IMG/VR virus record: IMGVR_UViG_3300032073_000011
Location: 38,193 to 102,192 of that record
Origin: a virus
Strand: one strand, 5' to 3'
DNA length: 64,000 nucleotides
The translations under genes were made by a program, and so were the position numbers. The notes under the pieces were generated by a model that saw nothing but the letters and a program-made list of their open reading frames with translations, was not told the origin of the DNA and searched no databases. Shown in pieces: positions 6,701-30,304 of this stretch. The stretch's first letter is position 1. Each line of letters starts with the position of its first letter.

Positions 6701-7719
6701 AAGGATAGAGAAAAACATTTGTTACTTCTGGAAACTATTTTATTGTTTCTAAGTTCGTTAATCCAACCTAGTGGATACATCTCTTTACCGTTTTTTATTA
6801 TTTTTCTAGTAGTTTTTATTTTGCCATCTTCTACTTCTCTCGATATATTATAAGGTATTTCAATAATATTACTATCGGTTAAACCTACACCTTCTAAATC
6901 TGTATTTAAATTTTTTGGGTTTTGTATTGCATAAACCTCACTACTCATCAGTGTTAGTGACGCTGCATCAACATTTTGTGAAACTAAAGCTTTGTTATAA
7001 TCAAAAATAACTTCTCTTGACGCTAAATCATTACTGGTTAAAGATATATAAGTTGTATCTAGTTTTATAGTGGGTGTTACATTTATTATAGGTTCAGGGA
7101 TAGTAATTGGTAATTCTGTACCCTGTACTATTGTTATTTCTTCTTTTTGTGTTTTAAAACCTAAAGATTTTACATATTGGCCTTCTGACTGGATGTGTAT
7201 ATCCAAATCAAAAGAGTACTTATTAGCTTGTTTCTTTGGTATATTTGCACCTGGTAATAACATTTGTAGTGAATGGAATTTACCCATTACTATAGTTTCG
7301 AATGGTAGCATTGCTCCTACTCCTCTAACCGCGTGTTTTGGTGTTTGGGTGGAGAAATAGTTTGGGTGTGATAGAAAGGCACCAAACCCATTACCCTTAA
7401 CACTTTCAAAACTATGAACACCTTTATTGGTTTTAAAAACTTCTAGAAATAAATCTGTTTTTCTTAAAGATATTATATTAGAAAATTGTTTAATTTTTAG
7501 GTGGTCACCAGAAAATCTCAAAAATAGTCTTTCTTCCTCCCCTTGATACATGCAAATAGCTTCTACTAAATTATCAGTATTGTACGTTAGTTGTATACAT
7601 TTTTTCTTATTGTATGCTTTACTGGTTGTATTCCCTGGTGTATTAGAGATTAAAAGCATGAATTTTATTTCATCACCTAACACTCTTAAATCTATATATG
7701 TTTTATATGTTTTTGCCAT
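3796..7719 (-). CDS. Large putative virion structural protein with Cys-rich C-terminal modules (1307 aa)
   Basis: Long ORF in the tail cluster. C-terminal YSCMDGRCFEDRSGIYRTLDDCVKSC and CKAGTYWCEKRGC resemble modules of the 2918-aa protein. Confidence 0.6.
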   Translation of the reverse strand: MAKTYKTYIDLRVLGDEIKFMLLISNTPGNTTSKAYNKKKCIQLTYNTDNLVEAICMYQGEEERLFLRFSGDHLKIKQFSNIISLRKTDLFLEVFKTNKGVHSFESVKGNGFGAFLSHPNYFSTQTPKHAVRGVGAMLPFETIVMGKFHSLQMLLPGANIPKKQANKYSFDLDIHIQSEGQYVKSLGFKTQKEEITIVQGTELPITIPEPIINVTPTIKLDTTYISLTSNDLASREVIFDYNKALVSQNVDAASLTLMSSEVYAIQNPKNLNTDLEGVGLTDSNIIEIPYNISREVEDGKIKTTRKIIKNGKEMYPLGWINELRNNKIVSRSNKCFSLSFNSREQLISFSEKLKKQQIGNVETYPVANAFTESYGDAVTRPKKTYSKISQWIERSLLDEYNDVSFTYDSDSYIKNILICPRKKTKVNNEGGVTKEMYSDGTILRQLNGQPYIGDYHYNPKMGPVTGKDSSSPNQQLLTELYCYAPISANSITDFYLTTYGMKKVDIYSAFTSTTSSAYQPDYTYDLHISGNSFSAHSTTTGTTCIPVSNMEREYVCPMINDVNKQYKPYSFSGVYSGNSGGSLALDESSPKHYMTYTVKSTGVYRFTYKAFLNVKYTDTQWCDYVSRICPSAVTATTGVFPQNDYQTKRLINTSIIQGGEDETRTTLQDTGGKAHPGYRFKRPGDGWWDQTPINSGIMKFNFEASILRYTSGSTTSGVVTGGTSGTPSTLVSTNVKRANIDGTADNYLTLDVSENDKFSNTYNVCITTGASATTIFSKQIPIVLDTGLISLAAGDIIELAYDVNWESISKGNYFGGGGTTNLDINLGHQLNHLGDKIASPWYRGVKLSDSIIYKNLFFDASKQSKPFLMKTNGMDREVRLDGTLYLSDRKCGNIKRPTITPESFTRQTFLDSSAPNHKLMWNLKSGKPVNNWQNLLENNTIKDYQLTSSPENKLTAMKKEGVFCFYLPTYNSDFGAKCDFNFPQITQSYVIINKFKNFFGNDLTHYIVVTPSCNFYKPCSGTKVLSDYDILHKTRPDKWKVENVDKKITINGKEITILSSDSHSNPKPKTLPNQNICKYFCDCGQDVAEHLEIDPIYGITDLFTDLEGKDCTDCVKNSRKHCSEIHAKCKPVIIEDCSELKDYAQSTTETGIPVKLKGTIIVDTTTTTRPPIDDRSDEETDGPSGKPTGGPTDSQTLYSCMDGRCFEDRSGIYRTLDDCVKSCVEKVRGGGPVTPKEPADPIEEAATEAVIDSKAVVEVGVKGKPTSKDEITRILKESIKEKEEAGICKAGTYWCEKRGCIPLKEEC

Positions 7720-12096: not shown

Positions 12097-12729
12097 TTAT
12101 TTCCCTACTAATTCTGTTGCTGGAAAATATTTTTTGTAGTCTCTTAGGTAAATTTCGTCGTCGTATTTAAATCCGTTATTTATTCTCTGTATTTGTTTTA
12201 CCGATGGAAATTGTAATTTTGTAACCCAGAGACCTTCAATAACCTCTTCTTCTATATTCCAATTAGAAACTATCATATTATTTCTTTTAACATGGGGTGC
12301 GTAAGCTAGACCTACTTTTTCAAAGCTGTAAGGTTCACAATCTTTTATACCCCCCCTATAACAAATTTTATTTAATTCTACATTTTCTCTATTTTGGTAG
12401 TATACATCCATATAAAAATCACATTCTTCTAGTGCTACCCTAGATAAATCTATCAAAGTATCTCTAATTAATTCTAATTTATTATTACCGTCATCTATTA
12501 AAATAATATCTATATCCCAGCTATTCCAATTTATGTTACCATTAATATAATTAGGAAAAGAACCTGTCAACAACACATCAAATTGGTTAAAATAAGATTT
12601 TTTTTCTACAATATTTAACCACTTTTCAAATCTTCTAAGTGTGGGTCGGTAGATTTTTTTACTAACTGATATGGGGCCTACTTCAAAGTTAAAAAATCTA
12701 CCAAATTCTATTTCTCTTCTTATACTCAT
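12097..12729 (-). CDS. Pol-beta-superfamily nucleotidyltransferase-like protein (210 aa)
   Basis: hhhGS...DhDhhh signature (VLLTGSF...WDIDIILID) and a later candidate third Asp (YMDVYY); starts 1 nt after the giant gene's stop. Confidence 0.65.
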   Translation of the reverse strand: MSIRREIEFGRFFNFEVGPISVSKKIYRPTLRRFEKWLNIVEKKSYFNQFDVLLTGSFPNYINGNINWNSWDIDIILIDDGNNKLELIRDTLIDLSRVALEECDFYMDVYYQNRENVELNKICYRGGIKDCEPYSFEKVGLAYAPHVKRNNMIVSNWNIEEEVIEGLWVTKLQFPSVKQIQRINNGFKYDDEIYLRDYKKYFPATELVGK

Positions 12730-12730
12730 C

Positions 12731-15700
12731 TTAGGTTGGCATACACTGACATCTATCCCAATCCCATTGATATCCCTCCGGACAACTTTCAGTTTGTATA
12801 CAAGGTTCTTCGGTCACCCAATCATCCTCGATAGGTCCTCCAGGTCCAATAACTATTGGTACACAACTACAGTCTGATTGAGACCAAACTTGTCCAATAG
12901 GGCACGCCCAAGTTGGTGGTACACAACAGTCACTAGTTGGTTTTGTTACCCACCCTATACCTAACCAAAACTCACAATCACATGGGTTGTATGTGGTAGG
13001 CAGTGTTTGATAAATCCAAGTACCATCTTTTTTAAGTTTTCCACAACATTCGTTACATGGGGTTACTGGTGGTGGACATGGTGAATTTTGACATGCTTGT
13101 AGACTAGTATATGGACCACCTGGTACTGGTACACACTCGTGATTACTTGGGTCGAATATTGTTGGTCGGTGTAGACAATCATAGTAAATACTCCCTGAAA
13201 CTCCACTACATGGAAAGGACCCTGAAGGTGTACAACTAACCCAACCATAAATATTTCCATCAGTAAAAGGAACAATAACACCAGCACCGTAATATTCCCA
13301 ATTTCCATCTTGGTTTGTATCATACACAGCACACGGAGATGAATTAGAAAAACCAGGACCTCTAACGGGGTCATCATGGTCAACCCATCCAGAACCAAAA
13401 TCATTAGGGTCTACATTAGGTGACATCATACAACAATAACAACAACCGTCATTTGGGTCTACGACACATTGGTTCTGGTAAAAGTGTTGGTATGCTGGTG
13501 TTTTCCACTGTAAAGGTAGTGTTGCTCCCCAATTAGTAGACATGTAGGTATCACAATTATTACAATCTACCGCACCAGTACTATTATCACATGGAGAACC
13601 ATCTGTTGTAACCTTACAATCCATCCACATCGCACCACCACCTATATTTACACCTACATTTAATGATGGTTGATATCCGGATTTACAAATTACTTTAGTT
13701 GGTGATGGACCTGAGCCTCCTGGACCTGAGCCTCCTGGACCTGAGCCTCCTGGCCCAGCGGGACTTATAGTTCCATCATTCCTTTTAATCTTTGAATGAG
13801 GGTCATCGTCGTCATGTGGGTCGTCTGGCCCAAATGGGTATGGAACACAACAATAACAACAACCATCATCTGGGTCTGTCACACAATCATTCTCTACGTA
13901 GGCTGGGTTAAATGTAGAATACCATATACCTTCATAATCTATAGGTCCTGTTAAGTAACCAGATAGGGTTTGTGCACAATCTTCACAACCTTGTTTACAA
14001 TTTGCTATACATAATGATAAAGCATTTGGTCCTTGATATTGAGCTGTACCAGTATTATTTTGAATACAGTTACAACTTCCTGGACAATTAACACAATCGT
14101 AACCTATATCCGGTGGTGTTGTTGAACATTTTGGGTCACATGGCCACCATATTGGTCCTCTATTTTGAATATTTATTTCCGGAGTTACTGGTGTTGGGTC
14201 TTGTGTCCCATTATAATATTTCCCCAGTAAGTGATTCTGGTAGATTTGACTAGGTGAATAACTCATAATATCACTACCAGTAAAATGACAATTATCACAA
14301 ACTAAGACATAACAACAATCATCATATGGGTCTTTAACTATATCAAATGGAGTATATATAGTTCCTGATAACCAAAGACCTGCAATATTTGATGATGCTA
14401 GTGGAAGAGTTTGTGTGAAACCTATACTATAGGTACCGTTATGGTGAACGTAAGTTGGTGATATAAACGAAGATGGTGGACATTCTGTTGAACAGTCAGT
14501 TGATTGATTTTCACAACAGTTTGATACTGGTATTCCGTTTTGGCAATCACTAAGGGTAGCGTAGGTCCCAAATCCTGATACGTTAACTACACATTTACAT
14601 AAACCGTTATTACCGGGAACACAATCATATCTACCGGTATGACCAGTATAACAACAATCATTAACTTGAGCTTCACAATCTGCTTGAGTAGGCCAAACAC
14701 CACTTGCTGTTTGTACACATTTACAACCACCTGCTTTTGGACCAAAATCAACACATTCCCAATCTTTTGTTACTCCCGTATAACAACAATTATTATTAAT
14801 TGCTGTTTGACAATCATGTAACGTTGAGTATGGTCCGGTAGGGTCTATGACACAAGAACAATCTTTAGTACATCTCCACATATCTGGCATTGTTCTTCCT
14901 GAACAACATGTTGTTGGGTCATTTTCACAATCAAATAAAGCGTTTGGTCCGGTATAACTTCCCATCCCTGCGGGTACAACGACACATTCACATTTAAAAT
15001 TATTTGCACCTACAGGTCCTATAATTGGAATTTTTCTACACTCGTACTCATCATACCTTATTGTACAACAGTTATTAGAGTTATAACATTCTGTTTGAGA
15101 ACTAAATCCTGTTATGTCATTTGGTATAAACGTACAGTCACATATTTTTGGGTCACATTTCCAACTACCACAACAAGGGTCGTAATTTAGAGTAGTTTGA
15201 CAACCTGATAAACTATTAAAAGCTCCTGTTGGACCATTAACTTGTACACAGACACAAGGAGTTTGTGTACATCTACATGGGGTCATTTGTATGTCCATAC
15301 ATTTATCTCTAAGATATGAACCCCAAATTGCATTTATCCCTAAACACACATCATCCCAACTACTTGATAAGCTCAATATTGTACCACTTGGTGATGTTAC
15401 TCCCGCACCAGCTAAACTAGTAATCATAGAACTCCATGTGTTGTAACTTCCAGGTATCCCTATCATAACGCCCACATTTGGGTGTATTACAATTGGTCCG
15501 TTTACCTGATATAGTGGTGCTGCATTAGGAGTACCTGCAGCATATGTACATGGGTTACTAAATATAGGTCCAGGTCCATAATAAGGGAATTTTATAGTCA
15601 TGACATCGGTTGTTTGTAAATAAGGTACACCTGCTGGTGCTCCTATTACTTCCAATAAATCATACTGATTTAATGTTGCTGTAGGAGGAACCACTAAATT

Positions 15701-18700
15701 ACGGTTAGAACAACTATCCGTAATGGTTCCTGGTATACAATCATAAGTCTGTTGCATAACACCCGGTACACAATCAGGGTCACATGGTATCCACTGTAAA
15801 CTTAATGTTCCACCTCCTGGCCAAACTGGGTTACTTGTATTTAAATCGTTAATATATGCTTGGTAGTAAAAATAAGGTGGTACTGTCCAATCTTGAGATG
15901 TATCCCAAACATTCACATAACAACAAGATGTATTATCAAAACTAAATGTAACAACATCTCCTATGTTATATACTTGTCCTGATACCCAAGGTAAAGCACC
16001 TGTACTCATATTAACTGGTGTTGAGCCTAACACCCAAGACATAGTTCCAGTATCATACATTTGATATGTTATAGGACTATTTGTTGTACAGTGATAACAT
16101 CTACAACAAGAACCATCAGCACCAAATAAAGTTAGTGATTGAACATAAGTTTCACAATCTAACATATTTGTAAATGGATATGGTGAACATGAAGGGGATA
16201 CCGGACCATTTACGAATTGACAATGACAATCTCCTGCTGGAGGAACACAGTCACCACAAACAAAATTACACTCATCAGTACAAGCTGCGGCGTTTGTTCC
16301 AAAGAAAGTAACACATGGATTTCCATCACTACCCATTGGTGGAGTTCCTATATATGATAAACAACCATCAACTGCATGACAACAATATTCAGTTTGTGGT
16401 TCCCTACAAGTTCTATCACCTGTAACTGTTAATTGTTGTTGAGCACAATCTCCTGGTGAGGTAGAACTTGGTAGTCCTGTACCACAAGATGCTGTACCAC
16501 CACTACAAGTCATATCACCCCATGCACAAGCTACAACTGTTGGGTCACCGCACAAATCACAAACACCGGTACCTGGAGGTGCACAATCACAACAGAATCT
16601 ACATCTTTCTTCACACTGTGCTTGAGTAGGGAATCCCATTCCCGTAGGTACGTTACCTAGTGTTACCGCAAAAAAGTAATTATTATTTGGGTCCGAAGGT
16701 CCACCTGCGGCTTGTCCTATCGCTTGTGATTGGTATGCACTACCTTGACCTACAAAGTAGGAGCTTGGTTGACATGGTTGTGAACCTGGGGTGTCATACA
16801 ATCCTGCGTCCGCACCAGCCCAATCACACCACCATTCTTCTGATAAGTTTTGACATAAACAATTAGTATTTGCCAGTTCACAAGCTGTAGCTGAAGGATA
16901 TGTAACTGAAGCTAACGACATTGGTATAAATTGGCAAGTTTGTGCTCCTTGGGAATTACACTCCCAAGTACACCATTCTTGACATCCTGATAAACTAGTA
17001 AAAGTTCCTCCACTACCCATTACTGGGTAACAACCTACACCACCCACACAAGGATTACCCGCCACTGTAGGACAGTTACAACTACTGTCACATTCCCAGG
17101 TCATAATACTTGTATTTCCCGTACAACAAAATGCAAATCCAGGGTCTATCTGTGATTGACATAGGTCTAGAGACCCATAAGGCCAGGTAGTCAAAACACC
17201 GGTCATTTGAAAAACAATCCCGGGTTGAACTGGTGGCCATGTAAATGGAAATGGTGAATAACCATTAAAATGAATACCTAAGTTACCTGTCCCTGGTGAA
17301 TATATATCATTTAAATAATCTTGCATAACTACACAATTAGAAACATCTACTGGTTCTAATCCTGCTGGTGGTCCTGGGTCTGCACAATAACAGTCTGCTG
17401 TACATTGGTCGATACCCATTCCAATTAATGGTGTACTACAAGTTCCACCCGTATAACAGTTATTTTGTGTTGCCCATATCGAAACGTTTACACCTGGAGG
17501 TGGGTCAAATATACCACCCACACCACTAGCTGTAGAAGAAGGCAGTGACCCACAACCTGAAGTGCAACCACTAGGGGTACACCACATTGTAGCGGCAGAA
17601 CTAGGTCCATCACAAGGACCACAAGGGTCACCTATAGTTGGTACTGGAGTTGCTGGGTCATAAGCTGGTAGTCTTTCACATGTTTGCCAACAATTTGGTG
17701 GTCCGTTTACTGTATATGGTCCATCATCTGGGGGACTAGAATCACAATCATAACCTGTACCAGTTATATCTGGTGGACACATACACATGAAACAACATTC
17801 AGGTGTATTTCCGTCACTATAACTTACAGTCTCAAACATATTATAAGTGTTAGTGTTAGACCATGGCCCTGACCAAGTAAATGCACTAGTAATTGGTATT
17901 CCGTTTACAGTTAACCAATCTTCACATGCACAATTACAAGTTTCTTCTACAGGTGCACAACAAGTCATACCTGTTGTGTTTAGTGGGTCTGGGTCCGGAC
18001 ATAATGCGTTAACACAATCTATCATGTCACAGTAAGGTAATCCTGGATTGTCATCAAAACACTGTACAATACCAGTTAATCCATTCATTGAATTTACATA
18101 AGCTGGAGAACAACAATTAACATTTGTTGGGCCAACCTGTAGGTCTAAGTTAGTTTGTGAAATCCAATAACATGGTAGTTGTCCTCCACCACCACCTTGT
18201 AGTGCTGGACCTGTAGTTGTGTAAGCTGACCAACCATTTAGTCCTGCTTGAATTGGGTCATCTTCACATACTGCTCTACAACATTCTGTTGCGTTACAAC
18301 ATTCTTCAAAAGAGGTATACCCCGTAGGGTTACCAAATGGGTCTGTCGGGGAACCTGGGGACCAAGTAACTCCAAGTTGTATCATAACATACTCACTTGC
18401 GTAGTATGTACATCCACCTACTTGTTGTCCTATTTGTGCAGGGGGATTTGTATCGTCATATACAAAACAATCAAAACCACCAGGACAAGTACACCCTGTT
18501 TGACATTGTGGTAAATCTGGGAATGTTGGTGGACTACCGAATGGGTTTGGTGGCCAATAAGGACAGGACGCTGCGTTAGTAATTGGGTCTTGGTATATGG
18601 TACATGGTGTAGGATTTGTACAATCACAAACATAACATACGGTAGAACAGGAACAGTTCATTTCACAATCAATGTGCCCCTGTAAATCATATGCGTAACC

Positions 18701-21487
18701 ACAATTTAAAGTAGAACAAGTTGTACAAGGGTCACACATAGGGTCACATACCCATCCACAAGGGGTGTTACCTATACCTAACCATTGTGGGTTAGCGGCA
18801 TAACAAGATGCTTCATCGGTATACCCAGTACCCACATATACCGGTTTACAACCTTCTTCACAATTATAAATCCACCTAGTATAATCACAACAACCCGTGT
18901 AAGTTCCGGCTGAATTCGTAAATCCACCATTACAATCACTTATATCGTAAGGGTCAAAAAATAATTCAAAATTAAATGCCGCGTAGTCTACAAAATTTAA
19001 AAATGGTGCTGGTGTAGGTGGTAAAGTACTCATTACTGGTAATACACTATCAACATAAAATGAGGTTCCGTTTAAAAGGTCCTCATCACATGAAAGTAAT
19101 TGACAACAATTCCCTCCAGCTGCTGGTGAACTAGTAGTACATGAAAAAGCTGGGGGATTACACCAATTATTACAGTCAATTTCACTATCAAAAACTGGTC
19201 CTTGATTAGGGTCTAACCCACTTGGGTCATTATATAAAGGGTGTGCTGAAGTAATTTCTATACAATTACCACAAGAATATTGGTCTTCACAAACATACCT
19301 ATCTTCACAACAATTACCTAAGTAAAAAGTATCCATACAATCTTCAAAAGCTGTAAATCCGACACTTGTACAAGGACCTGTATTTGTTGACCCCGTACCT
19401 GGTACTAATTGACATGAAAGACTAGATGCTGTTAAAGCTGATACTGGTGGACATACCCAACTAGAACATCCAATATAATCCCAATATTGATTATTGGTTA
19501 GGCCGGATGGTGGTGGTAACGTACCACCTGATAAAGCTCTATAACAATTACCCCATTGACCTAAAGTAAATTGTCCTGTTGAGTACACATTACCATTACT
19601 GTATACTCCCGCTGGACCCACAGGTGATATGGTAGGATACGCATTCCATGTGTTAGTTGGGTCATAACAAGGTATAGCTGTAAAGTCTGGGCATGATTCA
19701 CACTCTGGAGTACAAGCCTCCCAAATATGTTCTGTTGGTTGTCCGTTATTCCACCAAACTCCTTGTACTAAATCAGTTGGTTTAATTCCAGCCCAAGGGT
19801 CTATAGTTCCACCACTCTGATTAATATCTGTTACTGCCATATAACAACAACACTCCCCCCAAGTAGAGTCAAATACTATATCTCCTTTAACATAGTTTGT
19901 CGTTGCCGACCATTCACCCCAATTAGTGTTAATCATTGGGTCGAAACTTATAGGTTCTGGTAGTGTGGTTATTCTATCAATATATTCGTCTTTTGTTTCA
20001 CAGTAAGTACAATCTTCTATTGCACATTTTACACAATCAAAAGCACCGAAAGCAAAAGCATCCATACCACAACTTGTAGCTTCATATAAAGTAACACCAT
20101 TACTAAAGTCATAAAAAGTTATTGGTGTATTTGTACCAATACTAATAGTATAAGCAGTATATTGTGTGTTTTCTACTGTAATTCTACCCATAACCCCTTG
20201 TTCTATAAGGTTGGTTATTGGATTTATTACTTCACCCATAATCGGTACATCAACATTTATTTGGTATCCCGGTGGTAAATTACCAGTTTGTAGTGATGTG
20301 TATGTTTGAAACGCACCTAGTAAACTTTGTGTGTTACCTGTAACCTCAAAACAATTACTATTATTACCACCACCAAATATAGGTGACATACCACTATATT
20401 GTAATATATCGGTACCAGAATCTAAAGGTGAAAAAGGATAGGCACCAAAATATGTATTAGTACCTGTAGGTCCAGTAGGTCCAACTACTGGAGCGTTACT
20501 AGGAGCTATACCTGTATTAAGAACTGAATTGTAAGGTTGAGCTTGTAATGTATTATAAGGCATGAATGGAACTGTTATAACTTGAGAAACTGAAGTTGGT
20601 CCCCATTCATTTTGATGAGTTATGGTAATCCTTCTTTGTCCTACACCAGCATAAGTATGTGGTGTTGGGTTTGTAAGATTTGGAAATTGTAGGGTTTCAC
20701 AACAAGGGTCACCAAATGAATTTGTACAAGGTGGTGTCACACAATCACAAGGACAGTCACCCCACTCTATAGTATATGGTGAATTTTGGTAGGTTTTGTA
20801 ATAACCAAAATCCGTAGTATTATATATTTGTATTTGGTTACCCATCGCGGTGGTTGCGGTAACAATAAAATTAGAAAAAATATCTTTTTGACCTAGATTT
20901 CCATCCCAAATATCATAATGCCCTATATCATTAAAATCTTGTTCTAGGAAAATAGGTATTTGATGTAAGTCATTAAATACTGGTGGTGGACAAAAACAAG
21001 ATACTGTGTTTGGTGTTAAGTGTGCACTAGTTTGGGTGTTTAGTGGTTGTGATAAAGTAGAATTTGTTAAAGAAAAAATACTTATTAAATCATCATAACT
21101 TTCACCAGTAAATGTCATTACCCCAGATTGGTATAAATTTAACCCAGCAAATATAACATAAGGATGGGATTCTACATCCAAACAAAATGGTTGATTCATA
21201 GTTGGTGCATTACCGTATGGTGGTGGTGCACCCATTACTGGCATCGTAGTTGTATCATTTAATAGGATACATGGGTTTGTTGACGAACATCCAGTTAGTT
21301 CGGTAGGAAAATTATTCATGTCACCCTGTAAAGCGTTCTGTACTTGACTAAATGTAGAGTTGTACATTGTTAATCCTGAACAGTTAGGGCTTGTATTGAT
21401 AGGGTAGAAATTAGTTCCACCGGTACAAGGTACTGTAAAATAAACACTAGGGTTACTTCTTTTTATTCTATATTTGTATACTTCCAT
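12731..21487 (-). CDS. Giant Cys/Pro-rich modular tail (adhesin/fibre-like) protein, 2918 aa, with PKD-like domain, CBM5/12-like modules and Cys-rich repeats
   Basis: Uninterrupted 8.7 kb ORF. PKD-like YTIEWGD...HTYAGVGQRRITIT; repeated W-x4-Y-x2-GD-x-V modules; repeated [WY]xC...C...GxYxTLxxCQ...CC units. Confidence 0.75.
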   Translation of the reverse strand: MEVYKYRIKRSNPSVYFTVPCTGGTNFYPINTSPNCSGLTMYNSTFSQVQNALQGDMNNFPTELTGCSSTNPCILLNDTTTMPVMGAPPPYGNAPTMNQPFCLDVESHPYVIFAGLNLYQSGVMTFTGESYDDLISIFSLTNSTLSQPLNTQTSAHLTPNTVSCFCPPPVFNDLHQIPIFLEQDFNDIGHYDIWDGNLGQKDIFSNFIVTATTAMGNQIQIYNTTDFGYYKTYQNSPYTIEWGDCPCDCVTPPCTNSFGDPCCETLQFPNLTNPTPHTYAGVGQRRITITHQNEWGPTSVSQVITVPFMPYNTLQAQPYNSVLNTGIAPSNAPVVGPTGPTGTNTYFGAYPFSPLDSGTDILQYSGMSPIFGGGNNSNCFEVTGNTQSLLGAFQTYTSLQTGNLPPGYQINVDVPIMGEVINPITNLIEQGVMGRITVENTQYTAYTISIGTNTPITFYDFSNGVTLYEATSCGMDAFAFGAFDCVKCAIEDCTYCETKDEYIDRITTLPEPISFDPMINTNWGEWSATTNYVKGDIVFDSTWGECCCYMAVTDINQSGGTIDPWAGIKPTDLVQGVWWNNGQPTEHIWEACTPECESCPDFTAIPCYDPTNTWNAYPTISPVGPAGVYSNGNVYSTGQFTLGQWGNCYRALSGGTLPPPSGLTNNQYWDYIGCSSWVCPPVSALTASSLSCQLVPGTGSTNTGPCTSVGFTAFEDCMDTFYLGNCCEDRYVCEDQYSCGNCIEITSAHPLYNDPSGLDPNQGPVFDSEIDCNNWCNPPAFSCTTSSPAAGGNCCQLLSCDEDLLNGTSFYVDSVLPVMSTLPPTPAPFLNFVDYAAFNFELFFDPYDISDCNGGFTNSAGTYTGCCDYTRWIYNCEEGCKPVYVGTGYTDEASCYAANPQWLGIGNTPCGWVCDPMCDPCTTCSTLNCGYAYDLQGHIDCEMNCSCSTVCYVCDCTNPTPCTIYQDPITNAASCPYWPPNPFGSPPTFPDLPQCQTGCTCPGGFDCFVYDDTNPPAQIGQQVGGCTYYASEYVMIQLGVTWSPGSPTDPFGNPTGYTSFEECCNATECCRAVCEDDPIQAGLNGWSAYTTTGPALQGGGGGQLPCYWISQTNLDLQVGPTNVNCCSPAYVNSMNGLTGIVQCFDDNPGLPYCDMIDCVNALCPDPDPLNTTGMTCCAPVEETCNCACEDWLTVNGIPITSAFTWSGPWSNTNTYNMFETVSYSDGNTPECCFMCMCPPDITGTGYDCDSSPPDDGPYTVNGPPNCWQTCERLPAYDPATPVPTIGDPCGPCDGPSSAATMWCTPSGCTSGCGSLPSSTASGVGGIFDPPPGVNVSIWATQNNCYTGGTCSTPLIGMGIDQCTADCYCADPGPPAGLEPVDVSNCVVMQDYLNDIYSPGTGNLGIHFNGYSPFPFTWPPVQPGIVFQMTGVLTTWPYGSLDLCQSQIDPGFAFCCTGNTSIMTWECDSSCNCPTVAGNPCVGGVGCYPVMGSGGTFTSLSGCQEWCTWECNSQGAQTCQFIPMSLASVTYPSATACELANTNCLCQNLSEEWWCDWAGADAGLYDTPGSQPCQPSSYFVGQGSAYQSQAIGQAAGGPSDPNNNYFFAVTLGNVPTGMGFPTQAQCEERCRFCCDCAPPGTGVCDLCGDPTVVACAWGDMTCSGGTASCGTGLPSSTSPGDCAQQQLTVTGDRTCREPQTEYCCHAVDGCLSYIGTPPMGSDGNPCVTFFGTNAAACTDECNFVCGDCVPPAGDCHCQFVNGPVSPSCSPYPFTNMLDCETYVQSLTLFGADGSCCRCYHCTTNSPITYQMYDTGTMSWVLGSTPVNMSTGALPWVSGQVYNIGDVVTFSFDNTSCCYVNVWDTSQDWTVPPYFYYQAYINDLNTSNPVWPGGGTLSLQWIPCDPDCVPGVMQQTYDCIPGTITDSCSNRNLVVPPTATLNQYDLLEVIGAPAGVPYLQTTDVMTIKFPYYGPGPIFSNPCTYAAGTPNAAPLYQVNGPIVIHPNVGVMIGIPGSYNTWSSMITSLAGAGVTSPSGTILSLSSSWDDVCLGINAIWGSYLRDKCMDIQMTPCRCTQTPCVCVQVNGPTGAFNSLSGCQTTLNYDPCCGSWKCDPKICDCTFIPNDITGFSSQTECYNSNNCCTIRYDEYECRKIPIIGPVGANNFKCECVVVPAGMGSYTGPNALFDCENDPTTCCSGRTMPDMWRCTKDCSCVIDPTGPYSTLHDCQTAINNNCCYTGVTKDWECVDFGPKAGGCKCVQTASGVWPTQADCEAQVNDCCYTGHTGRYDCVPGNNGLCKCVVNVSGFGTYATLSDCQNGIPVSNCCENQSTDCSTECPPSSFISPTYVHHNGTYSIGFTQTLPLASSNIAGLWLSGTIYTPFDIVKDPYDDCCYVLVCDNCHFTGSDIMSYSPSQIYQNHLLGKYYNGTQDPTPVTPEINIQNRGPIWWPCDPKCSTTPPDIGYDCVNCPGSCNCIQNNTGTAQYQGPNALSLCIANCKQGCEDCAQTLSGYLTGPIDYEGIWYSTFNPAYVENDCVTDPDDGCCYCCVPYPFGPDDPHDDDDPHSKIKRNDGTISPAGPGGSGPGGSGPGGSGPSPTKVICKSGYQPSLNVGVNIGGGAMWMDCKVTTDGSPCDNSTGAVDCNNCDTYMSTNWGATLPLQWKTPAYQHFYQNQCVVDPNDGCCYCCMMSPNVDPNDFGSGWVDHDDPVRGPGFSNSSPCAVYDTNQDGNWEYYGAGVIVPFTDGNIYGWVSCTPSGSFPCSGVSGSIYYDCLHRPTIFDPSNHECVPVPGGPYTSLQACQNSPCPPPVTPCNECCGKLKKDGTWIYQTLPTTYNPCDCEFWLGIGWVTKPTSDCCVPPTWACPIGQVWSQSDCSCVPIVIGPGGPIEDDWVTEEPCIQTESCPEGYQWDWDRCQCMPT
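13706..13754. repeat. Perfect 15-bp tandem repeat x3 (TGGACCTGAGCCTCC) encoding a (GPGGS)n linker
   Basis: Directly visible; in frame within the giant protein. Confidence 0.95.
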
Positions 21488-22441: not shown

Positions 22442-24218
22442 CAGTGTATTCGGTTAATATAGTTATTGTTGCTGAGGTTAGTGGGATTAATGCTGGCCCC
22501 ACCGCCTCTATTTTAAATTCTAAATTATGGTAAGGGTAGTGAGCATCATTTAAATAGGGGTAACTAACACCATTATCCCCATCTTCATAAGCTTCTACCG
22601 GTAAAATTTCTCTCCACCTAAATGTTTCCTCTGATAAAGAATAAACAGCATACTGGGGTGATGTAAACAGACTATCATTATAACTTACATAATTAGAGAA
22701 TTTTTTTACAGGTATCTTGTGGTGTGGATGGTATTTAAAGATAGAATCTACAAAATCATATCCTGGTGTACCACCAACTTTATACATCGCATCTCTATTA
22801 AATTTTAAGGAATGTCCTATTTCTGAAATTACTCTTTCTTTTAACTCAAAAGGGTTATATTCAGCAAAAGCACCTCTAAGTGTACTTCCACTTAATGGTA
22901 ATGGATTTACCCCTAAATTACCGTTTTGAGTTACATTTATGGGGTGAATTGTGTTATCCACAAAAGGGTCTACCACCCCATTTTTTTTAAAGTTCCACCC
23001 CCAACCATATCCAGCTGGACTAGAATTACCACCAGGATTCCAATCCCAAACTAAATTTCTATTTGTAGTAAAAATTGTTAAATAAAATTCTGTTAAAGGC
23101 CTATTAAATTGGTCGTAATAATCATCACTATTAATATTATAATTACAATTCCATAAAAATGAATCGTATTCTTGGATTAAAACCGACTTTTGTTTATAGT
23201 TTGGTGTTCTTTTTGCTGGAAATATTCTTCCTCTTTTATTGTATATCCCTCTTTCAAAACCTGTTTTATCTAAAGTTAAATCATTAGGGTTTGTTATTAA
23301 TTTATGTATTTGACAATAGTATTCAGATTTTGTCTCTAGCATATTTTCTGGGTTAGTGACTCTTTTTAAAGTACCTACTGGTTCTGTTGGTATTGAGGTA
23401 GCGTCTAACCCTAATGTGGTAATATTCATAACATAATCTTCAGAATTTTCTAATCCATTACCCAAATAATCTACTTTAAATATAGTTTGAGGCCCACTTA
23501 CCGGTGCAAATACAGTAGTAATTGCTACATCAACTAGTAGATTAGCGTTACCAAAAGTAGTTGCCCCAGATTGTATTTCTATATATTCTCCTGGTGATAC
23601 ACCATGTCTTACCGGTGTTATTATTTGTAACACTTCTTTACCATCAGTATTGGTCACTCTGGGGGTAAAAGGGATACCATCTCCAGCTACAAACTGCATA
23701 CCAGAAGGTGTGGTGTAGTCTGTATAGTATTCCATTGTTTGTTCTGGGTCTGCATCATGTACATAAGAAATATATCGCACCCAATTATCTTGGTGTGCTA
23801 ATATTGGTTCCCAACCTGCTTGACTAGGGTCAATACCATATCTTTTAGGTGGTATCATGGTAAAAGTACTAGATGGTGGTAAACCGGAACAACTAGTAGG
23901 TGGTACTCCACCTAAAAGATGGGGGCACCCTATATAATCTGGAATAAAATACATTGAGTCCATAAAATAAGCATCTTGTGTGCTACCACTAATAATATTG
24001 TTGTAAAGTATATCTATTTTCCCATATAACCTATATTGGGTTGAGTATTCTCTTTCAAAGTCAAATTGGTCTCTTAGGTCTAAAACTAGGTTTCTGTCAC
24101 CTTCATGTATTTGTTTTTGTGTGGATTCTAAAAACGGTTGTAATTGCAATTCTCTGTTAGGTGAACCAGCAAATTTAGATTCTCCTCTTACAATCCTTAT
24201 GTTTTTTTCGTTACTCAT
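22428..24218 (-). CDS. Hypothetical virion structural protein (596 aa)
   Basis: Translationally coupled (TAATG overlap) in the baseplate operon. Confidence 0.6.
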   Translation of the reverse strand: MSNEKNIRIVRGESKFAGSPNRELQLQPFLESTQKQIHEGDRNLVLDLRDQFDFEREYSTQYRLYGKIDILYNNIISGSTQDAYFMDSMYFIPDYIGCPHLLGGVPPTSCSGLPPSSTFTMIPPKRYGIDPSQAGWEPILAHQDNWVRYISYVHDADPEQTMEYYTDYTTPSGMQFVAGDGIPFTPRVTNTDGKEVLQIITPVRHGVSPGEYIEIQSGATTFGNANLLVDVAITTVFAPVSGPQTIFKVDYLGNGLENSEDYVMNITTLGLDATSIPTEPVGTLKRVTNPENMLETKSEYYCQIHKLITNPNDLTLDKTGFERGIYNKRGRIFPAKRTPNYKQKSVLIQEYDSFLWNCNYNINSDDYYDQFNRPLTEFYLTIFTTNRNLVWDWNPGGNSSPAGYGWGWNFKKNGVVDPFVDNTIHPINVTQNGNLGVNPLPLSGSTLRGAFAEYNPFELKERVISEIGHSLKFNRDAMYKVGGTPGYDFVDSIFKYHPHHKIPVKKFSNYVSYNDSLFTSPQYAVYSLSEETFRWREILPVEAYEDGDNGVSYPYLNDAHYPYHNLEFKIEAVGPALIPLTSATITILTEYTDGCQ

Positions 24219-27996: not shown

Positions 27997-29835
27997 TTAA
28001 AGTACTGGTTTAGATGGTTTTTTGTATCTAATTGCTATATCTTGATTTGGAAAACGTATCTGGAGTATCTCGTTAGGTTGAGCGTAAATAGTGTCGTCAA
28101 TCAATCCTATTTGTTTTGTGGTAGCGTTAACGTAAGGTTGGGTTGTTACCGATTGTGAATAATTGCCACCTACTTTATTAAATACTATTATATCAGTTAG
28201 GTTTAATACTCCTGGTTGGTTCATTATAAAAGCTCTTAAACTACCTAAAGCTAGGTCTTCTCCTAACTCCATTTTGTCAACAGCAAAATAATCACTTACT
28301 TTTGTTATGACATTTGTTACTATTTCACCTTCATTCGCATCTTTTTCTAAAATTAGGTCAATAGAAAAAGCTAAGTCTATTACTCTAGCCGCACCAACAA
28401 CAACATAATCATTTATCATTCTATAATTAGATAAATAATTAGCGATATTATTTTTAAGTGTGTTACTTACTAGTGAGGTTAATTTACCATCTGGGGTATA
28501 TGAAAGTACATTAACATTAACTTTATTTTCTATTTCTGTAACACCAACTTTTGCTGGTGCACCAAATGTTGCTGGCATCGTTCTTAATTTAGAAACATAA
28601 TCATTAATTGTAACCCCTCTATTCTGTGCTGCAAAATTAAAAGAGATGTAATTTCTTATTTCATCTGGTGTCATTTGATTTGCACCCCCTATAGCCGCAG
28701 TGGTATTAGTTACAGCTAAACTACTAATTACCGTCTGATTTATTTGTTGACTTGGTCCACCAACCATAAAATCTACATTACCTACAGTGTTAACTGCTCC
28801 CGCTCCAATATTTGCGGCTTTACCACCACCAACTCTATATTGTATGAATAGTGTGGTATTTGCTTTAACAGAGTTACCTAAAGCTATATTATTTAGAAAT
28901 TTAGACATATTTAACTTAACCCCTTTTGATGCAAAATCATCTAATAGGTCTTGTGAAGTTTGGTTTCCACTCCCAAAAGTTAAATGGAAAAACCCTTCCG
29001 GGGTAAATTCCGTTATAAATCTTTGTGGTACTGTTATATATTTACCAACTTTAATACCTGGTGTATCTGCTGGTATAGATGGGTCCAACACAAAAACTTC
29101 ATTTTGTGCTAAGGCTTCCACTTCGTACCATTTATTAGATACTGTTGATAAAAATTCACTGTTTGATGGTATGGTTTGGTATCCTAGTCCTGGTTTTTGT
29201 ATAACTGAAGTTACACCTATAACGTTTTTCTCTGGTAAAAATATTTGGTAAAATGGTTTACTGTCAGCGTCCGTAATTTCTTTTTTAAACACTTTAGTTA
29301 TTCCGTTAACCACAACTTCTCTTTTAACTATTGTATAGTTTTGGGTTATCCCATTGGCATCTTTATTAGGTATTTTAGTTTGGTTTGGTACTCCTTCTGC
29401 ATTATATTGTGATGAAAAATCACAATCTTCTACAAGTTCAAATACTTGACCTGCACCCCTAAATTGTGAACCCGCTCTTAGTCTCCCTAAATATTTAAAA
29501 TCTTCTTTATCCCCTAAAACTGGCACTATGATAGATAAATCTAAAACTGTTACTGAAGGTCTATTTCCTGGTATTTTTAAACCATAAGTTTTTGCTATGT
29601 TATATAATGAACTTCTTTCCTGTGCGTATTGTAGTACTGTTTCTTGAAAAGTTCTGTCTATTTGGAAGTTTAGGTTGTCTGCAACTGCAGCGTTAAGGTC
29701 TAAAAATACAGAGTATATAGATGCGTCATTTGCATTTTTAATTAAATCTGGGTAATAAGTATTAGTTAATCTTAATAATTCATTTCTAATACCTAAAAAG
29801 TCTCTTTCTGTATAAGCTATTTTTTTCTGTGCCAT
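27997..29835 (-). CDS. Baseplate wedge subunit (T4 gp6 / baseplate J-like)
   Basis: YTERDFLGIRNEL, AQERSSLYNIAKTYG, YRVGGG..ANIGA and AAQNRGVTINDY motifs; adjacent to the gp25-like gene. Confidence 0.85.
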   Translation of the reverse strand: MAQKKIAYTERDFLGIRNELLRLTNTYYPDLIKNANDASIYSVFLDLNAAVADNLNFQIDRTFQETVLQYAQERSSLYNIAKTYGLKIPGNRPSVTVLDLSIIVPVLGDKEDFKYLGRLRAGSQFRGAGQVFELVEDCDFSSQYNAEGVPNQTKIPNKDANGITQNYTIVKREVVVNGITKVFKKEITDADSKPFYQIFLPEKNVIGVTSVIQKPGLGYQTIPSNSEFLSTVSNKWYEVEALAQNEVFVLDPSIPADTPGIKVGKYITVPQRFITEFTPEGFFHLTFGSGNQTSQDLLDDFASKGVKLNMSKFLNNIALGNSVKANTTLFIQYRVGGGKAANIGAGAVNTVGNVDFMVGGPSQQINQTVISSLAVTNTTAAIGGANQMTPDEIRNYISFNFAAQNRGVTINDYVSKLRTMPATFGAPAKVGVTEIENKVNVNVLSYTPDGKLTSLVSNTLKNNIANYLSNYRMINDYVVVGAARVIDLAFSIDLILEKDANEGEIVTNVITKVSDYFAVDKMELGEDLALGSLRAFIMNQPGVLNLTDIIVFNKVGGNYSQSVTTQPYVNATTKQIGLIDDTIYAQPNEILQIRFPNQDIAIRYKKPSKPVL

Positions 29836-29836
29836 C

Positions 29837-30304
29837 CTATAAATCTATTATAACAAAATCTTTAGTTTCAAACACACCGTCTCCAGATGTATAATCAATT
29901 CTAACTCTCATAGAATAATTTCTTTGTGCCTCACCAACAAAACTCATATTTCCATCATCCATTGATAAGTCGGTATTTTGTGAGTTTATTTTTTCTTCGG
30001 CTTTTAAATCTTCTAAAGTTTTTACCTCCACATTATTTATAGTTAAACTAGGTATATACTTATCTACAGCTTCTCTTATTTCTCTTTCTATAGATATTTT
30101 AGTTGTGGTATCCATTAATTCAAATATATATTTACTTAAATTAGTACCAAAATCTGGCAAAAAATATCTAGAACCCTTTGGTGTAACTATTAGGTGAATA
30201 AGGTTTGACCTTACTTCACTATCTGTATCTGTATTTAACCCAAGAAAAAAACCTTCTGGACTATCTACAAATGGAAATGTTATACCGTATCTTTGTGTTG
30301 GCAT
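29837..30304 (-). CDS. Baseplate wedge / sheath initiator, gp25-like (GPW_gp25)
   Basis: VRSNLIHLIVTPKGSRYFLPDFGTNL..IFE and IREAVDKYIP signatures. Confidence 0.9.
   Translation of the reverse strand: MPTQRYGITFPFVDSPEGFFLGLNTDTDSEVRSNLIHLIVTPKGSRYFLPDFGTNLSKYIFELMDTTTKISIEREIREAVDKYIPSLTINNVEVKTLEDLKAEEKINSQNTDLSMDDGNMSFVGEAQRNYSMRVRIDYTSGDGVFETKDFVIIDL

What the first reader, a model, noticed from the sequence alone, without database searches (positions are those of the whole stretch)
12731..21487. 2918-aa cysteine-knotted, glycan-binding-like tail protein with a eukaryote-style modular architecture
Seen: after an ordinary N-terminal part of about 480 aa (with a PKD-like domain), the protein is a chain of two alternating module types. 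Type A occurs more than 20 times by hand count: [WYF]xC..(C)xC[VI]...GxY/FxT/SLxxCQxx(C/CC). Examples are WRCTKDCSCVIDPTGPYSTLHDCQTAINNNCC and YDCVPG..CKCVVNVSGFGTYATLSDCQNG..CC, and the most regular run is at about 14510-15260. Type B occurs about 7 times: W-x4-Y-x2-(G)D-x-V....CCY....W-x-x-C, e.g. WSATTNYVKGDIVFD..CCCY, WVSGQVYNIGDVVTF..CCY, WLSGTIYTPFDIVKD..CCY. The C-terminus has two CPxGxxWxxxxCxC units. Knowledge: type B matches the CBM5/12 (ChtBD3) aromatic pattern, here with added cysteines; CPxGxxW..C recalls peritrophin/CBM14 ends; the end of type A recalls the Kunitz F-x-T-x-x-x-C-x-x-x-C end. Phage virions assemble in a reducing cytoplasm and are normally Cys-poor. Inference: a very long flexible adhesin/fibre, stabilised by metal binding or by disulfides formed after lysis, that tethers the virion to polysaccharide (host capsule or the chitin/algal particles Flavobacteria colonise).
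Basis: partly seen in the sequence, partly recalled or inferred. Interest (0 to 1): 0.9.

Follow-up and report, generated by a model that had tools for sequence, protein, structure and literature searches.

The report
Giant cysteine-bead phage baseplate fibre
An uncultured jumbo phage encodes, among its baseplate genes, a 2,918-residue protein in which one residue in twelve is a conserved cysteine; it is most likely a very long tail appendage made of small disulfide-locked beads and chitin-binding-type modules, and the beads are the same kind that marine Flavobacteriales use in their own secreted surface proteins.

Summary
The ORF is real: 2,918 aa with 246 Cys (8.4%), against 0-3.2% in the window's other ORFs. 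It lies at a fixed position in the baseplate operon in all 57 related viral contigs fetched. Cys is the best-conserved residue (89%).

Type B (6 significant copies, 1 marginal) is a CBM5/12-like fold. The profile's best PDB matches are mainly CBM5/12 carriers, and the model superposes on chitinase binding domains (Z 4.8, rmsd 1.7 A over 41 residues) and on the same module in solved phage fibres.

Type A has 11 significant copies plus 3-8 degenerate ones, not more than 20. It is not eukaryote-like or Kunitz. It is a six-Cys variant of an unnamed, widespread four-Cys bead of about 33 aa, which also occurs in tandem in secreted bacterial proteins, including T9SS-sorted proteins of uncultured Flavobacteriales.

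Paired gain and loss of cysteines, no CxxC excess and few His favour disulfides over metal sites. The N-terminal 700 aa is conserved and the C-terminal tip is swapped between clades, as in receptor-binding proteins.

Glycan binding, presence in the virion and the oxidation route are untested. No thiol oxidase was found, but all records are incomplete.

This scan has already reported orthologues of this protein on other DNA, with similar conclusions.

The parts
12731..21487 (-). Whole gene: 2,918-aa protein with 8.43% Cys (P0001)
   Evidence: 16 full-length protein homologues. 57 related viral loci, of which 38 carry the giant form (27 with the whole ORF, 2,440-2,991 aa).
19448..21487 (-). Conserved N-terminal anchor, aa 1-680. 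The core at aa ~175-555 is shared even with the short (377-1,254 aa) homologues of distant relatives.
   Evidence: Highest conservation along the protein. tblastn matches of L040-L058 cover only aa ~175-555.
20588..20875 (-). PKD-like Ig domain (aa ~205-300; WGD...HTY motif) with a Cys-rich loop insertion
   Evidence: Profile matches to PKD chains 4xed_A and 9lip_S, E 0.35-0.46. Pfam PKD / PKD_4 hits in 6 and 4 of 25 core homologues.
19736..19918 (-). Type B module 1 (aa 524-584), CBM5/12-like; part of the conserved core
   Evidence: HMM E 1.5e-14. AlphaFold model pLDDT 84.6. VIA Z 4.8 to the MmChi60 chitin-binding domain.
19529..19609 (-). Marginal type B-like segment (aa 627-653)
   Evidence: HMM E 0.0025
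17099..19447 (-). Cys-rich region aa 681-1463, mostly not assignable to type A or B apart from one short-form type B module (aa 1207-1238, listed separately); includes a few degenerate A-like ends
   Evidence: The sliding family-profile self-search gives few off-diagonal hits here. Marginal A matches at aa 677, 866, 1047 and 1421.
17774..17869 (-). Type B module (aa 1207-1238), short form
   Evidence: HMM E 1.3e-11
16853..17098 (-). Two type A beads (aa 1464-1545)
   Evidence: HMM E 3.3e-7 and 6.3e-6. Also found by an HMM built only from external beads.
16586..16714 (-). Type A bead (aa 1592-1634)
   Evidence: HMM E 1.6e-6
15683..15991 (-). Long type B unit (aa 1833-1935): CBM5/12-like core plus a W-x-P-C-D-P-x-C tail. 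It is duplicated at aa 2370-2477.
   Evidence: Pfam CBM_5_12 sub-threshold hit at aa 1834-1848. HMM E 3.4e-10. Profile cross-matches between 1826-1935 and 2364-2477.
14510..15301 (-). Six tandem type A beads (aa 2063-2326), the most regular run
   Evidence: HMM E 5.9e-5 to 8.9e-12. Model of bead 2287-2326: beta-hairpin plus helix, pLDDT 77.7.
14108..14380 (-). Long type B unit (aa 2370-2460)
   Evidence: HMM E 4.7e-11
13982..14146 (-). Type A bead (aa 2448-2502)
13841..13930 (-). Type B module, short form (aa 2520-2549)
   Evidence: HMM E 9.5e-10
13703..13759 (-). Gly/Ser/Pro linker (GPGGS)x3, aa ~2577-2595; probably a hinge
   Evidence: The only PDB sequence 'hits' of the whole protein are scFv GGGGS linkers aligned to this stretch.
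13424..13510 (-). Type B module, short form (aa 2660-2688)
   Evidence: HMM E 5.4e-8
13040..13183 (-). Type A bead (aa 2769-2816)
12737..12910 (-). Clade-variable C-terminal tip with two CPxGxxW..CxC units (aa 2860-2917)
   Evidence: The number of units and the whole tip differ between clades.
27997..30304 (-). Context: the gp25-like and Baseplate_J (gp6-like) genes that head the conserved operon
   Evidence: Pfam PF04965 E 1.5e-11 and PF04865 E 7.1e-10. Synteny is conserved in all loci that extend that far.

Best explanation
The protein is a peripheral baseplate or tail-fibre protein of an uncultured jumbo myovirus of about 300 kb, probably infecting Flavobacteriales.

A conserved N-terminal part of about 680 aa (PKD-like Ig domain, unnamed core, first CBM5/12-like module) anchors it to the baseplate. 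The remaining 2,200 aa or so form a chain of small, independently folding, cysteine-stapled domains:
- 11-14 beta-hairpin-plus-helix beads. These are a six-Cys elaboration of a widespread four-Cys bead.
- 6-7 CBM5/12-like beta modules with added cysteines.
- Unclassified Cys-rich stretches.
- A Gly/Ser hinge.
- A tip that differs between clades.

The cysteines most likely form intradomain disulfides, on the order of 100, that make a thin beads-on-a-string appendage rigid and protease-resistant once the virion is in oxic water. The chain then serves as a long-reach adhesin for first contact with the host surface or with polysaccharide.

Shown here: the gene, its position, the modules, the folds, the homology of the bead to secreted-protein beads, the paired behaviour of the Cys, and the conserved-N / variable-C polarity.

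Inferred: presence in the virion, disulfide chemistry, glycan binding, the length of the appendage, and when and where oxidation takes place.
For: Position and context. The gene order gp25 - Baseplate_J - 1221 aa - 596 aa - 316 aa - this gene - (210 aa) - 73 aa - 306 aa - 1063 aa - 1307 aa - 1185 aa is conserved in the 57 loci, as far as each locus extends. In the nearest cultured relative by wedge protein (Flavobacterium phage immuto, 27% identity), annotated tail fibre and tail spike genes lie 9-15 kb downstream of the wedge gene, behind eight genes, seven of them annotated as hypothetical.

Structural cysteines. Cys is 89% conserved, against 29-65% for other residues.

Type B. 12 of 108 copies hit Pfam CBM_5_12, best E 4.3e-5. 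The profile's best PDB matches are mainly CBM5/12 carriers: 3wx7 at E 0.0035 and the 1ed7 ChiA1 chitin-binding domain at E 0.075. The model (pLDDT 84.6) superposes on the MmChi60 chitin-binding domain (Z 4.8, rmsd 1.7 A over 41 residues), on the V. cholerae deacetylase CBM12 (Z 4.1), and on the same module in solved phage fibres: 7-7-1 (Z 4.2), Milano (4.0), A-1(L) (3.9) and Pam1 (3.4).

Type A.
- A profile search of 1.84 billion representatives gives 119 hits. About 105 of them are unrelated to the giant family outside the module, and they carry tandem four-Cys beads.
- Carriers include a signal-peptide plus T9SS-sorted protein (P0043), a GH16 protein (P0039), and signal-peptide proteins from Parcubacteria and Phycisphaerales MAGs.
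- A 1,121-aa protein of an uncultured Flavobacteriales MAG has a signal peptide and 13 beads.
- An HMM built only from the external beads finds the same 11 modules in P0001, best E 3.8e-12.

Disulfides rather than metal.
- The two extra Cys of the six-Cys form are present together in 96 copies, absent together in 24, and discordant in 13 (Fisher p 5e-15, not corrected for phylogeny).
- 78% of copies have an even number of Cys.
- 72% of variable Cys columns have a partner column with the same distribution within 70 columns, against 19-36% for eight control residues.
- CxxC is not enriched (18 observed, 17.9 expected) and His is 0.8%.
- The same bead lives in exported proteins.

Receptor-binding-protein polarity. 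The N-terminal 700 aa is the most conserved part, and the last 200-600 aa are replaced between clades. Distant relatives keep only the core, followed by other Cys-rich sequence.

Precedent. Disulfide-cross-linked virions with fibres disulfide-bonded to the baseplate are documented for Pam3 (PMC9942802), Milano (PMC10811340) and 7-7-1 (PMC12796354).
Against: There is no experimental or proteomic evidence that the protein is in the virion.

Virions assemble in a reducing cytoplasm. No Erv1/ALR, DsbA, Thioredoxin_4 or radical SAM gene was found in five related records, so the oxidation route is unexplained. Those records are only 32-72% complete.

The CBM5/12 assignment rests on sub-threshold sequence scores and Z values below 5, which is close to the limit for a 45-aa domain. 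The profile does not conserve an aromatic at the position aligned with the ChiA1 binding Trp, so the modules may be structural spacers, as they may be in other phage fibres.

The bead model has only moderate confidence (pLDDT 77.7). The covariation counts are not corrected for phylogeny.
Confidence: 0.6

Rival explanations
1. The architecture is the same, but the cysteines bind metal (Zn or Cu clusters) rather than forming disulfides. The beads would then fold in the reducing cytoplasm.
For: Virions assemble in the cytoplasm. No oxidase gene was found. CC and CxC motifs are frequent.
Against: The homologous bead occurs in Sec/T9SS-exported proteins. Cys are gained and lost in pairs, not in sets of 3-4. 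CxxC is not enriched and His is 0.8%. The core bead has only 4 Cys, spaced unlike zinc knuckles.
Confidence: 0.12
2. It is a virion protein but not an adhesin: a structural brace, a garland-like collar or decoration of the baseplate or tail, or a spacer that sets geometry. The CBM5/12-like modules would be mere building blocks.
For: CBM5/12-like modules occur in several solved phage fibre and baseplate proteins without shown sugar binding. The binding-face aromatic is not conserved in the profile. Several large proteins downstream (1063, 1307 and 1185 aa) could be the real fibres.
Against: The clade-specific replacement of the C-terminal tip and the conserved N-terminus are typical of receptor-binding proteins. 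The bead is used in secreted surface or polysaccharide-active proteins (GH16, T9SS cargo).
Confidence: 0.17
3. It is not a virion component: a protein released at lysis or displayed on the infected cell, for example to bind particles or to block superinfection.
For: The modules are otherwise found in secreted proteins.
Against: There is no signal peptide or T9SS C-terminal domain. The gene has a fixed place inside the baseplate operon, with tight gene spacing, in all loci.
Confidence: 0.05
4. The cysteines are substrates for enzymatic cross-linking (radical-SAM thioethers), as this scan proposed for other Cys-repeat fibre proteins.
For: Earlier scan notes describe such systems in other jumbo phages.
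Against: No radical SAM gene was found in five related records. There is no CxxxC-type periodicity of that kind.
Confidence: 0.03

Closest known systems
Unnamed tandem four-Cys bead of about 33 aa, [WYF]-x-C-x(3-8)-C-x(5-8)-G-x-[YF]-x-[ST]-[LM]-x-x-C-[QE]-x-x-C, found in secreted proteins of uncultured Flavobacteriales (T9SS cargo), Parcubacteria, Phycisphaerales and many metagenomic proteins
   Same: HMM recognition is reciprocal. Both occur as tandem arrays, and the W-x-C ... G-x-Y-x-S-L-x-x-C-Q core is the same.
   Different: The phage copies usually add a covarying fifth and sixth Cys (CxC ... CC). They sit in a cytoplasmically made phage protein without an export signal, and they are mixed with CBM5/12-like modules. 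The bead matched no Pfam-A or NCBIfam model in the searches run here.
CBM5/12 chitin-binding modules (Pfam PF02839; ChiA1 chitin-binding domain 1ED7, MmChi60, Vibrio chitin deacetylase CBM12), and the same module in solved phage fibre and baseplate proteins (Agrobacterium phages 7-7-1 9RKV and Milano 8FQC, cyanophage A-1(L) 8KEC, Pam1 7EEA, Anabaena CIS All3316 7B5H)
   Same: The W-x4-Y-x2-GD-x-V ... Y motif and the three-stranded fold are shared (rmsd 1.6-2.0 A over 38-42 residues).
   Different: Scores are below Pfam's threshold. A CC pair is inserted before the second-strand Tyr, with further Cys in a tail. The aromatic equivalent to the ChiA1 binding Trp is not conserved. No binding data exist.
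Disulfide-cross-linked myophage virions: Pam3 (PMC9942802), Milano (PMC10811340), 7-7-1 (PMC12796354)
   Same: These phage structural proteins form disulfides that have been verified, including links between fibre and baseplate. Milano and 7-7-1 are described as unusually Cys-rich.
   Different: Those phages have 1.4-2.6% Cys, mostly in intersubunit bonds between ordinary folds. Here a single protein has 8.4% Cys arranged in small bead domains, and nothing has been verified.
Modular phage receptor-binding proteins with a conserved N-terminal anchor and exchangeable distal parts
   Same: Conserved N-terminus, clade-specific C-terminus and a fixed locus in the baseplate operon.
   Different: There is no recognisable trimeric beta-helix, collagen or coiled-coil shaft. 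The shaft appears to be made of independently folded Cys beads, more like eukaryotic EGF-type arrays in design, though not in ancestry.

Membership tests
CBM5/12 (Pfam PF02839) | Match to the Pfam HMM above the gathering score (26.2 bits) | tested here: not met
   The whole protein scores 15.7 bits, E 0.016. 12 of 108 module copies match at E < 0.1, best 4.3e-5.
CBM5/12 (Pfam PF02839) | Three-stranded antiparallel beta fold of about 45 aa | tested here: met
   The model (pLDDT 84.6) has strands at residues 3-6, 18-21 and 28-31. VIA Z 4.8, rmsd 1.7 A over 41 residues to MmChi60. Z 3.8, rmsd 1.6 A over 38 residues to the ChiC chitin-binding domain.
CBM5/12 (Pfam PF02839) | Sequence motif W-x(4)-Y-x(2)-G-[DQ]-x-V ... 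Y-x-[AC] | tested here: met
   HMM consensus GPWSPGTNYNIGDIVTDPDDGCCCYVCV. Alignments to 3wx7 and 1ed7.
CBM5/12 (Pfam PF02839) | Exposed aromatic binding residue (ChiA1 Trp687 equivalent; the identity of this residue is from my memory) | tested here: inconclusive
   In the 1ed7 alignment the Trp of 'AGWEPS' falls on a non-aromatic profile position. Individual long-form copies have aromatics nearby.
CBM5/12 (Pfam PF02839) | Binding to chitin or another glycan | not testable with these tools
   Needs recombinant protein.
Unnamed four-Cys bead family | Reciprocal profile detection and the shared core motif W-x-C ... C ... G-x-Y-x-S-L-x-x-C-Q-x-x-C | tested here: met
   119 representatives at E < 1e-3. 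An HMM built only from external beads finds the 11 window copies, best E 3.8e-12. Sequences are listed.
Kunitz/BPTI (PF00014) | HMM match and a six-Cys fold of about 58 aa | tested here: inconclusive
   No Pfam Kunitz hit in 82 copies at E <= 0.1. Structural Z is only 2.2 (APPI 5nx3_D) and 2.1 (SmCI 4bd9_B), tied with unrelated chains. The ancestral bead has 4 Cys, not 6.
CBM14 / peritrophin-A (PF01607) | HMM match to the six-Cys chitin-binding domain | tested here: not met
   No hit in the whole protein even at E <= 1.
PKD domain (PF00801 / PF18911) | HMM match and the WGDG ... HTY motif | tested here: inconclusive
   The motif is present. 6 and 4 of 25 core homologues match (best E 1.2e-3 and 2.3e-4), but not the window's own copy. 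PDB PKD chains match at E 0.35-0.46.
Ricin-B lectin subdomain | Profile match including the QxW motif | tested here: not met
   The best five PDB matches of the bead profile are ricin-type B chains, but at E 0.13-2.1, and only with a 13-aa gap where QxW lies.
Phage tail fibre / receptor-binding protein | Encoded in the baseplate/tail-fibre gene block | tested here: met
Phage tail fibre / receptor-binding protein | Conserved N-terminal anchor and variable distal end | tested here: met
Phage tail fibre / receptor-binding protein | Presence in virions and a role in adsorption | not testable with these tools
   The phage is uncultured. No PHROG or annotated phage homologue was found.

The most novel reading that the evidence does not exclude
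A jumbo phage of pelagic Flavobacteriales builds a fibre of more than 100 nm from about 100 disulfide-locked micro-domains, using beads shared with its hosts' own T9SS-secreted surface proteins. If so, the phage displays host-type adhesion modules and sticks to the same polysaccharide particles or cell-surface partners as the host. It would also need an as yet unknown route, cytoplasmic or after lysis, to oxidise more than 200 cysteines correctly in one polypeptide.
Probability: 0.15. Interest if true: 0.8.

Novelty: new variant of a known kind. Interest (0 to 1): 0.62.

Why it matters
Phage structural proteins usually have few cysteines. The phages reported as 'unusually' disulfide-rich reach 1.4-2.6% Cys (PMC10811340, PMC12796354). 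A conserved 8.4%-Cys, 2,918-aa baseplate protein therefore raises a concrete question: how does a virion assembled in the cytoplasm fold on the order of 100 disulfides?

The finding also defines a widespread small bead domain, shared between phages and secreted proteins of marine Flavobacteriales, that matched no model in the Pfam-A and NCBIfam copies searched here. The bead could be named, modelled and used as a marker for phage-host links and for extracellular adhesins.

Recombinant beads and CBM5/12-like modules are small enough for direct tests of disulfide mapping and glycan binding.

Tried and rejected
- PHROGs gave nothing for this protein or for six neighbours.
- tblastn against 50,697 phage records gave nothing for the whole protein at E 1e-5, for its N-terminal 560 aa below E 0.3, or for a bead-array protein (P0021) at E 1e-3.
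- phmmer against PDB matched only scFv Gly-Ser linkers.
- The ESM Atlas gave no usable hit for the bead array or for the N-terminal 520 aa.
- Foldseek with the bead model gave nothing at E <= 0.001 in PDB or BFVD. The wide VIA search gave a best Z of 2.4. The bead's fold is therefore unclassified; this does not show that it is new.
- The Kunitz, ricin-B and CBM14 leads were rejected or left inconclusive (see the membership tests).
- The second Cys-rich genes of distant relatives show no BLAST or phmmer similarity to the giant's array, so a simple gene-fusion origin is not shown.
- Complex prediction on three copies of aa 1-330 gave no answer (score 0.00, controls not run). This says nothing about oligomeric state.
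- Erv1/ALR, DsbA, Thioredoxin_4 and radical SAM were not found in five related records that are 32-72% complete. The Erv1 control rang in no control genome, so that search is uninformative.
Full report
**1. The observation**

The minus-strand ORF at 12731-21487 is intact and encodes 2,918 aa. It contains 246 Cys (8.43%), about 10% each of Gly, Thr and Pro, and only 2.2% Lys plus Arg. Every other ORF of at least 150 aa in the window has 0-3.19% Cys.

The window is part of a 102-kb IMG/VR viral record that CheckV estimates to be 32% complete, which implies a jumbo phage of roughly 300 kb. Pfam identifies gp25-like and Baseplate_J genes just upstream. Further along lie gp32-like, DnaB-like, 5'-3' exonuclease and class II RNR-like genes, and a 2,097-aa protein with an M23 peptidase end. 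This is a T4-like myovirus layout.

**2. Reality and conservation**

A search of 5.8 billion proteins found 16 full-length homologues (2,132-2,997 aa, 32-78% identity). None has a name or a Pfam domain. A scan of IMG/VR found 57 related loci.

In all of them, as far as each locus extends, the gene order is the same: gp25 - Baseplate_J - 1221 aa - 596 aa - 316 aa - this gene - (210 aa, optional) - 73 aa - 306 aa - 1063 aa - 1307 aa - 1185 aa.
- 38 loci carry the giant form; the 27 with the whole ORF have 2,440-2,991 aa and 7.4-8.6% Cys.
- 19 more distant loci share only aa ~175-555, in genes of 377-1,254 aa with 2.6-6.4% Cys. Where the locus extends far enough (12 loci checked), a second Cys-rich gene of 225-1,078 aa follows in the same slot. 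That gene has no detectable similarity to the giant's array.

Cys is the best-conserved residue: 89% identity to the query, against 65% for Trp and 29-59% for the rest.

**3. Type B modules**

An iterated HMM finds six significant copies (aa 524, 1207, 1833, 2370, 2520, 2660) and one marginal copy (aa 627). The long form is a unit of about 100 aa that is duplicated at aa 1826-1935 and 2364-2477.

Evidence for a CBM5/12-like fold:
- Of 108 non-redundant copies from the family, 12 hit Pfam CBM_5_12 individually (best E 4.3e-5). No other family recurs in more than two copies.
- The module profile's best PDB matches are mainly CBM5/12 carriers: Vibrio chitin-oligosaccharide deacetylase 3wx7 (E 0.0035), and the archetypal ChiA1 chitin-binding domain 1ed7 (E 0.075), aligned over 40 of its 45 residues. 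The other match is All3316 of the Anabaena contractile injection system.
- The AlphaFold model (pLDDT 84.6) superposes on the MmChi60 chitin-binding domain (Z 4.8, rmsd 1.7 A over 41 residues), on the V. cholerae deacetylase CBM12 (Z 4.1) and on the ChiC chitin-binding domain (Z 3.8, rmsd 1.6 A over 38 residues).
- It also superposes on the same module in solved phage fibre and baseplate proteins of 7-7-1, Milano, A-1(L), Pam1 and KP1.

Function is a separate matter. The profile position aligned with the ChiA1 Trp of 'AGWEPS' is not a conserved aromatic. I recall that Trp as the key chitin-binding residue, Trp687, but this is from memory. Sugar binding is therefore plausible but unsupported.

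**4. Type A modules**

An iterated HMM finds 11 significant copies and 3-8 marginal ones, not more than 20. The consensus is W-D-C-x(n)-C-x-C-V-x(n)-G-x-Y-T-S-L-x-D-C-Q-x(n)-C-C.

The AlphaFold model of one bead, built on an 82-sequence alignment, is a beta-hairpin followed by a helix (pLDDT 77.7). No significant structural neighbour was found. The Kunitz matches at Z 2.1-2.2 tie with unrelated chains.

The decisive result came from searching the bead profile against 1.84 billion representatives, which gave 119 hits at E < 1e-3.
- About 105 of the hits are unrelated to the giant family outside the module.
- They carry tandem arrays of a simpler four-Cys bead of about 33 aa, for example W-D-C-x-x-G-x-C-x-D-P-G-x-G-x-G-x-Y-S-S-L-x-x-C-Q-x-x-C.
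- Carriers include a protein with a signal peptide and a T9SS sorting domain (P0043), a GH16 protein (P0039), a Fib_succ_major protein, and signal-peptide proteins from Parcubacteria and Phycisphaerales MAGs.
- A 56%-identical relative of P0043 lies in an uncultured Flavobacteriales MAG: 1,121 aa with a signal peptide and 13 beads.
- In a sample of 201 genomes of that order, 16 have bead matches, and all 16 are 1.0-2.0 Mb genomes.
- An HMM built only from the external beads finds the same 11 modules in the window protein, best E 3.8e-12.
- The bead matched no Pfam-A or NCBIfam model in the searches run here.

The 'eukaryote-style' label is therefore a convergence of design. The module is prokaryotic and viral.

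**5. Disulfide or metal?**

Mapping the two forms onto each other, the four ancestral Cys correspond to the invariant or near-invariant Cys of the phage bead. The extra Cys (the first of CxC and the last of CC) are present together in 96 copies, absent together in 24 and discordant in 13 (Fisher p 5e-15, not corrected for phylogeny). 78% of copies have an even number of Cys.

Across the whole protein, 72% of variable Cys columns have a partner Cys column with the same distribution within 70 columns, against 19-36% for eight control residues. CxxC spacing is not enriched (18 observed, 17.9 expected) and His is 0.8%.

Together with the bead's use in exported proteins, this favours disulfides. 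How they would form is open:
- No Erv1/ALR, DsbA-like or radical SAM gene was found in five related records.
- One record has a thioredoxin gene, and all five give glutaredoxin-like matches (three above Pfam's cut-off; the window's own record scores below it); these are most simply RNR partners.
- All of these records are 32-72% complete.
- Oxidation after lysis in oxic water is the simplest inference.

**6. Polarity**

Conservation is highest in the N-terminal 700 aa and falls toward the C-terminus. The last 200-600 aa are replaced altogether in several clades, and the number of terminal CPxGxxW..CxC units varies. This is the usual pattern for receptor-binding proteins. A (GPGGS)x3 linker at aa ~2577-2595 probably acts as a hinge.

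**7. Comparison with the known**

Verified disulfide-bonded phage tails exist. Pam3 fibres are disulfide-linked to the wedge (PMC9942802). Milano and 7-7-1 have extensive disulfide networks at 1.4-2.6% Cys, against 0.9% in T4 (PMC10811340, PMC12796354). None of them has a protein like this one.

I found no paper that describes the bead or this protein family.

This scan has already reported orthologues on other DNA (e1-5403328, e1-5403388, e1-5862969, e1-5862980, e1-5836386, e1-5788369). Their conclusions match what I had derived independently before I read them.

**8. Verdict**

This is a real, conserved giant protein in the baseplate gene block, in which the two module types identified are CBM5/12-like modules and an unnamed cysteine bead shared with secreted Flavobacteriales proteins. 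It is most likely a disulfide-stabilised long adhesin or fibre (confidence 0.6). It is a new variant of known kinds (modular receptor-binding fibres and disulfide-rich virions), with one domain family that the libraries searched here do not list. Presence in the virion, the chemistry of the cysteines and the ligand all remain to be tested.

Noticed in passing
window 12097-12729 (-): A 210-aa ORF starts 1 nt after the giant gene's stop. It is optional in the family: present at 70-84% identity in the closest relatives and at 31-37% in a second clade, and not detected in many others. It has no Pfam hit at E <= 0.01, so the first readers' 'nucleotidyltransferase' label was not verified here.
   Followed up: partly
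L040-L058 (e.g. L044:12701-15895, L050:11682-14498): In distant relatives the slot holds a short core gene (377-1,254 aa) followed by a second Cys-rich gene (225-1,078 aa, 3-7% Cys). That gene has no detectable similarity to the giant's array. Each lineage fills the slot with different Cys-rich sequence.
   Followed up: partly
window 24218-27883 (-) and 3796-7719 (-): Two other large proteins of the same operon also have raised Cys content: 3.19% in the 1221-aa protein and 2.37% in the 1307-aa protein. The rest of the window has 0-1.9%.
   Followed up: no
genomes G006, G010, G017, G044 and others (order of the Flavobacteriales MAG that carries L060): The 16 of 201 sampled genomes with four-Cys bead matches are all 1.0-2.0 Mb, while many non-matching genomes are 2-5 Mb. 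The bead may mark streamlined pelagic lineages, which are candidate hosts.
   Followed up: partly
G000:C1:20855-20947 (outside the window) and L064-L070: Glutaredoxin-like matches occur in all five related phage records (three above Pfam's cut-off; the window's own record scores 19.1 bits, below it), and one record has a thioredoxin gene. They probably serve the RNR and are not shown to be linked to the Cys-rich protein.
   Followed up: no
window 30636-32540 (-): A 634-aa RNR-like protein matches only a short part of the RNR barrel (profile positions 209-290) plus the class II insertion domain. It is a divergent or reduced B12-type RNR.
   Followed up: no
window 38887-45180 (-): A 2,097-aa protein has a C-terminal M23 peptidase domain. 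It is probably a tape-measure or tail-lysin protein.
   Followed up: no
window 225-3782 (-): Another first-reader note proposes SprB-like repeats at the N-terminus of this 1185-aa tail protein. Pfam gave no hit at E <= 0.01 for the whole protein.
   Followed up: partly
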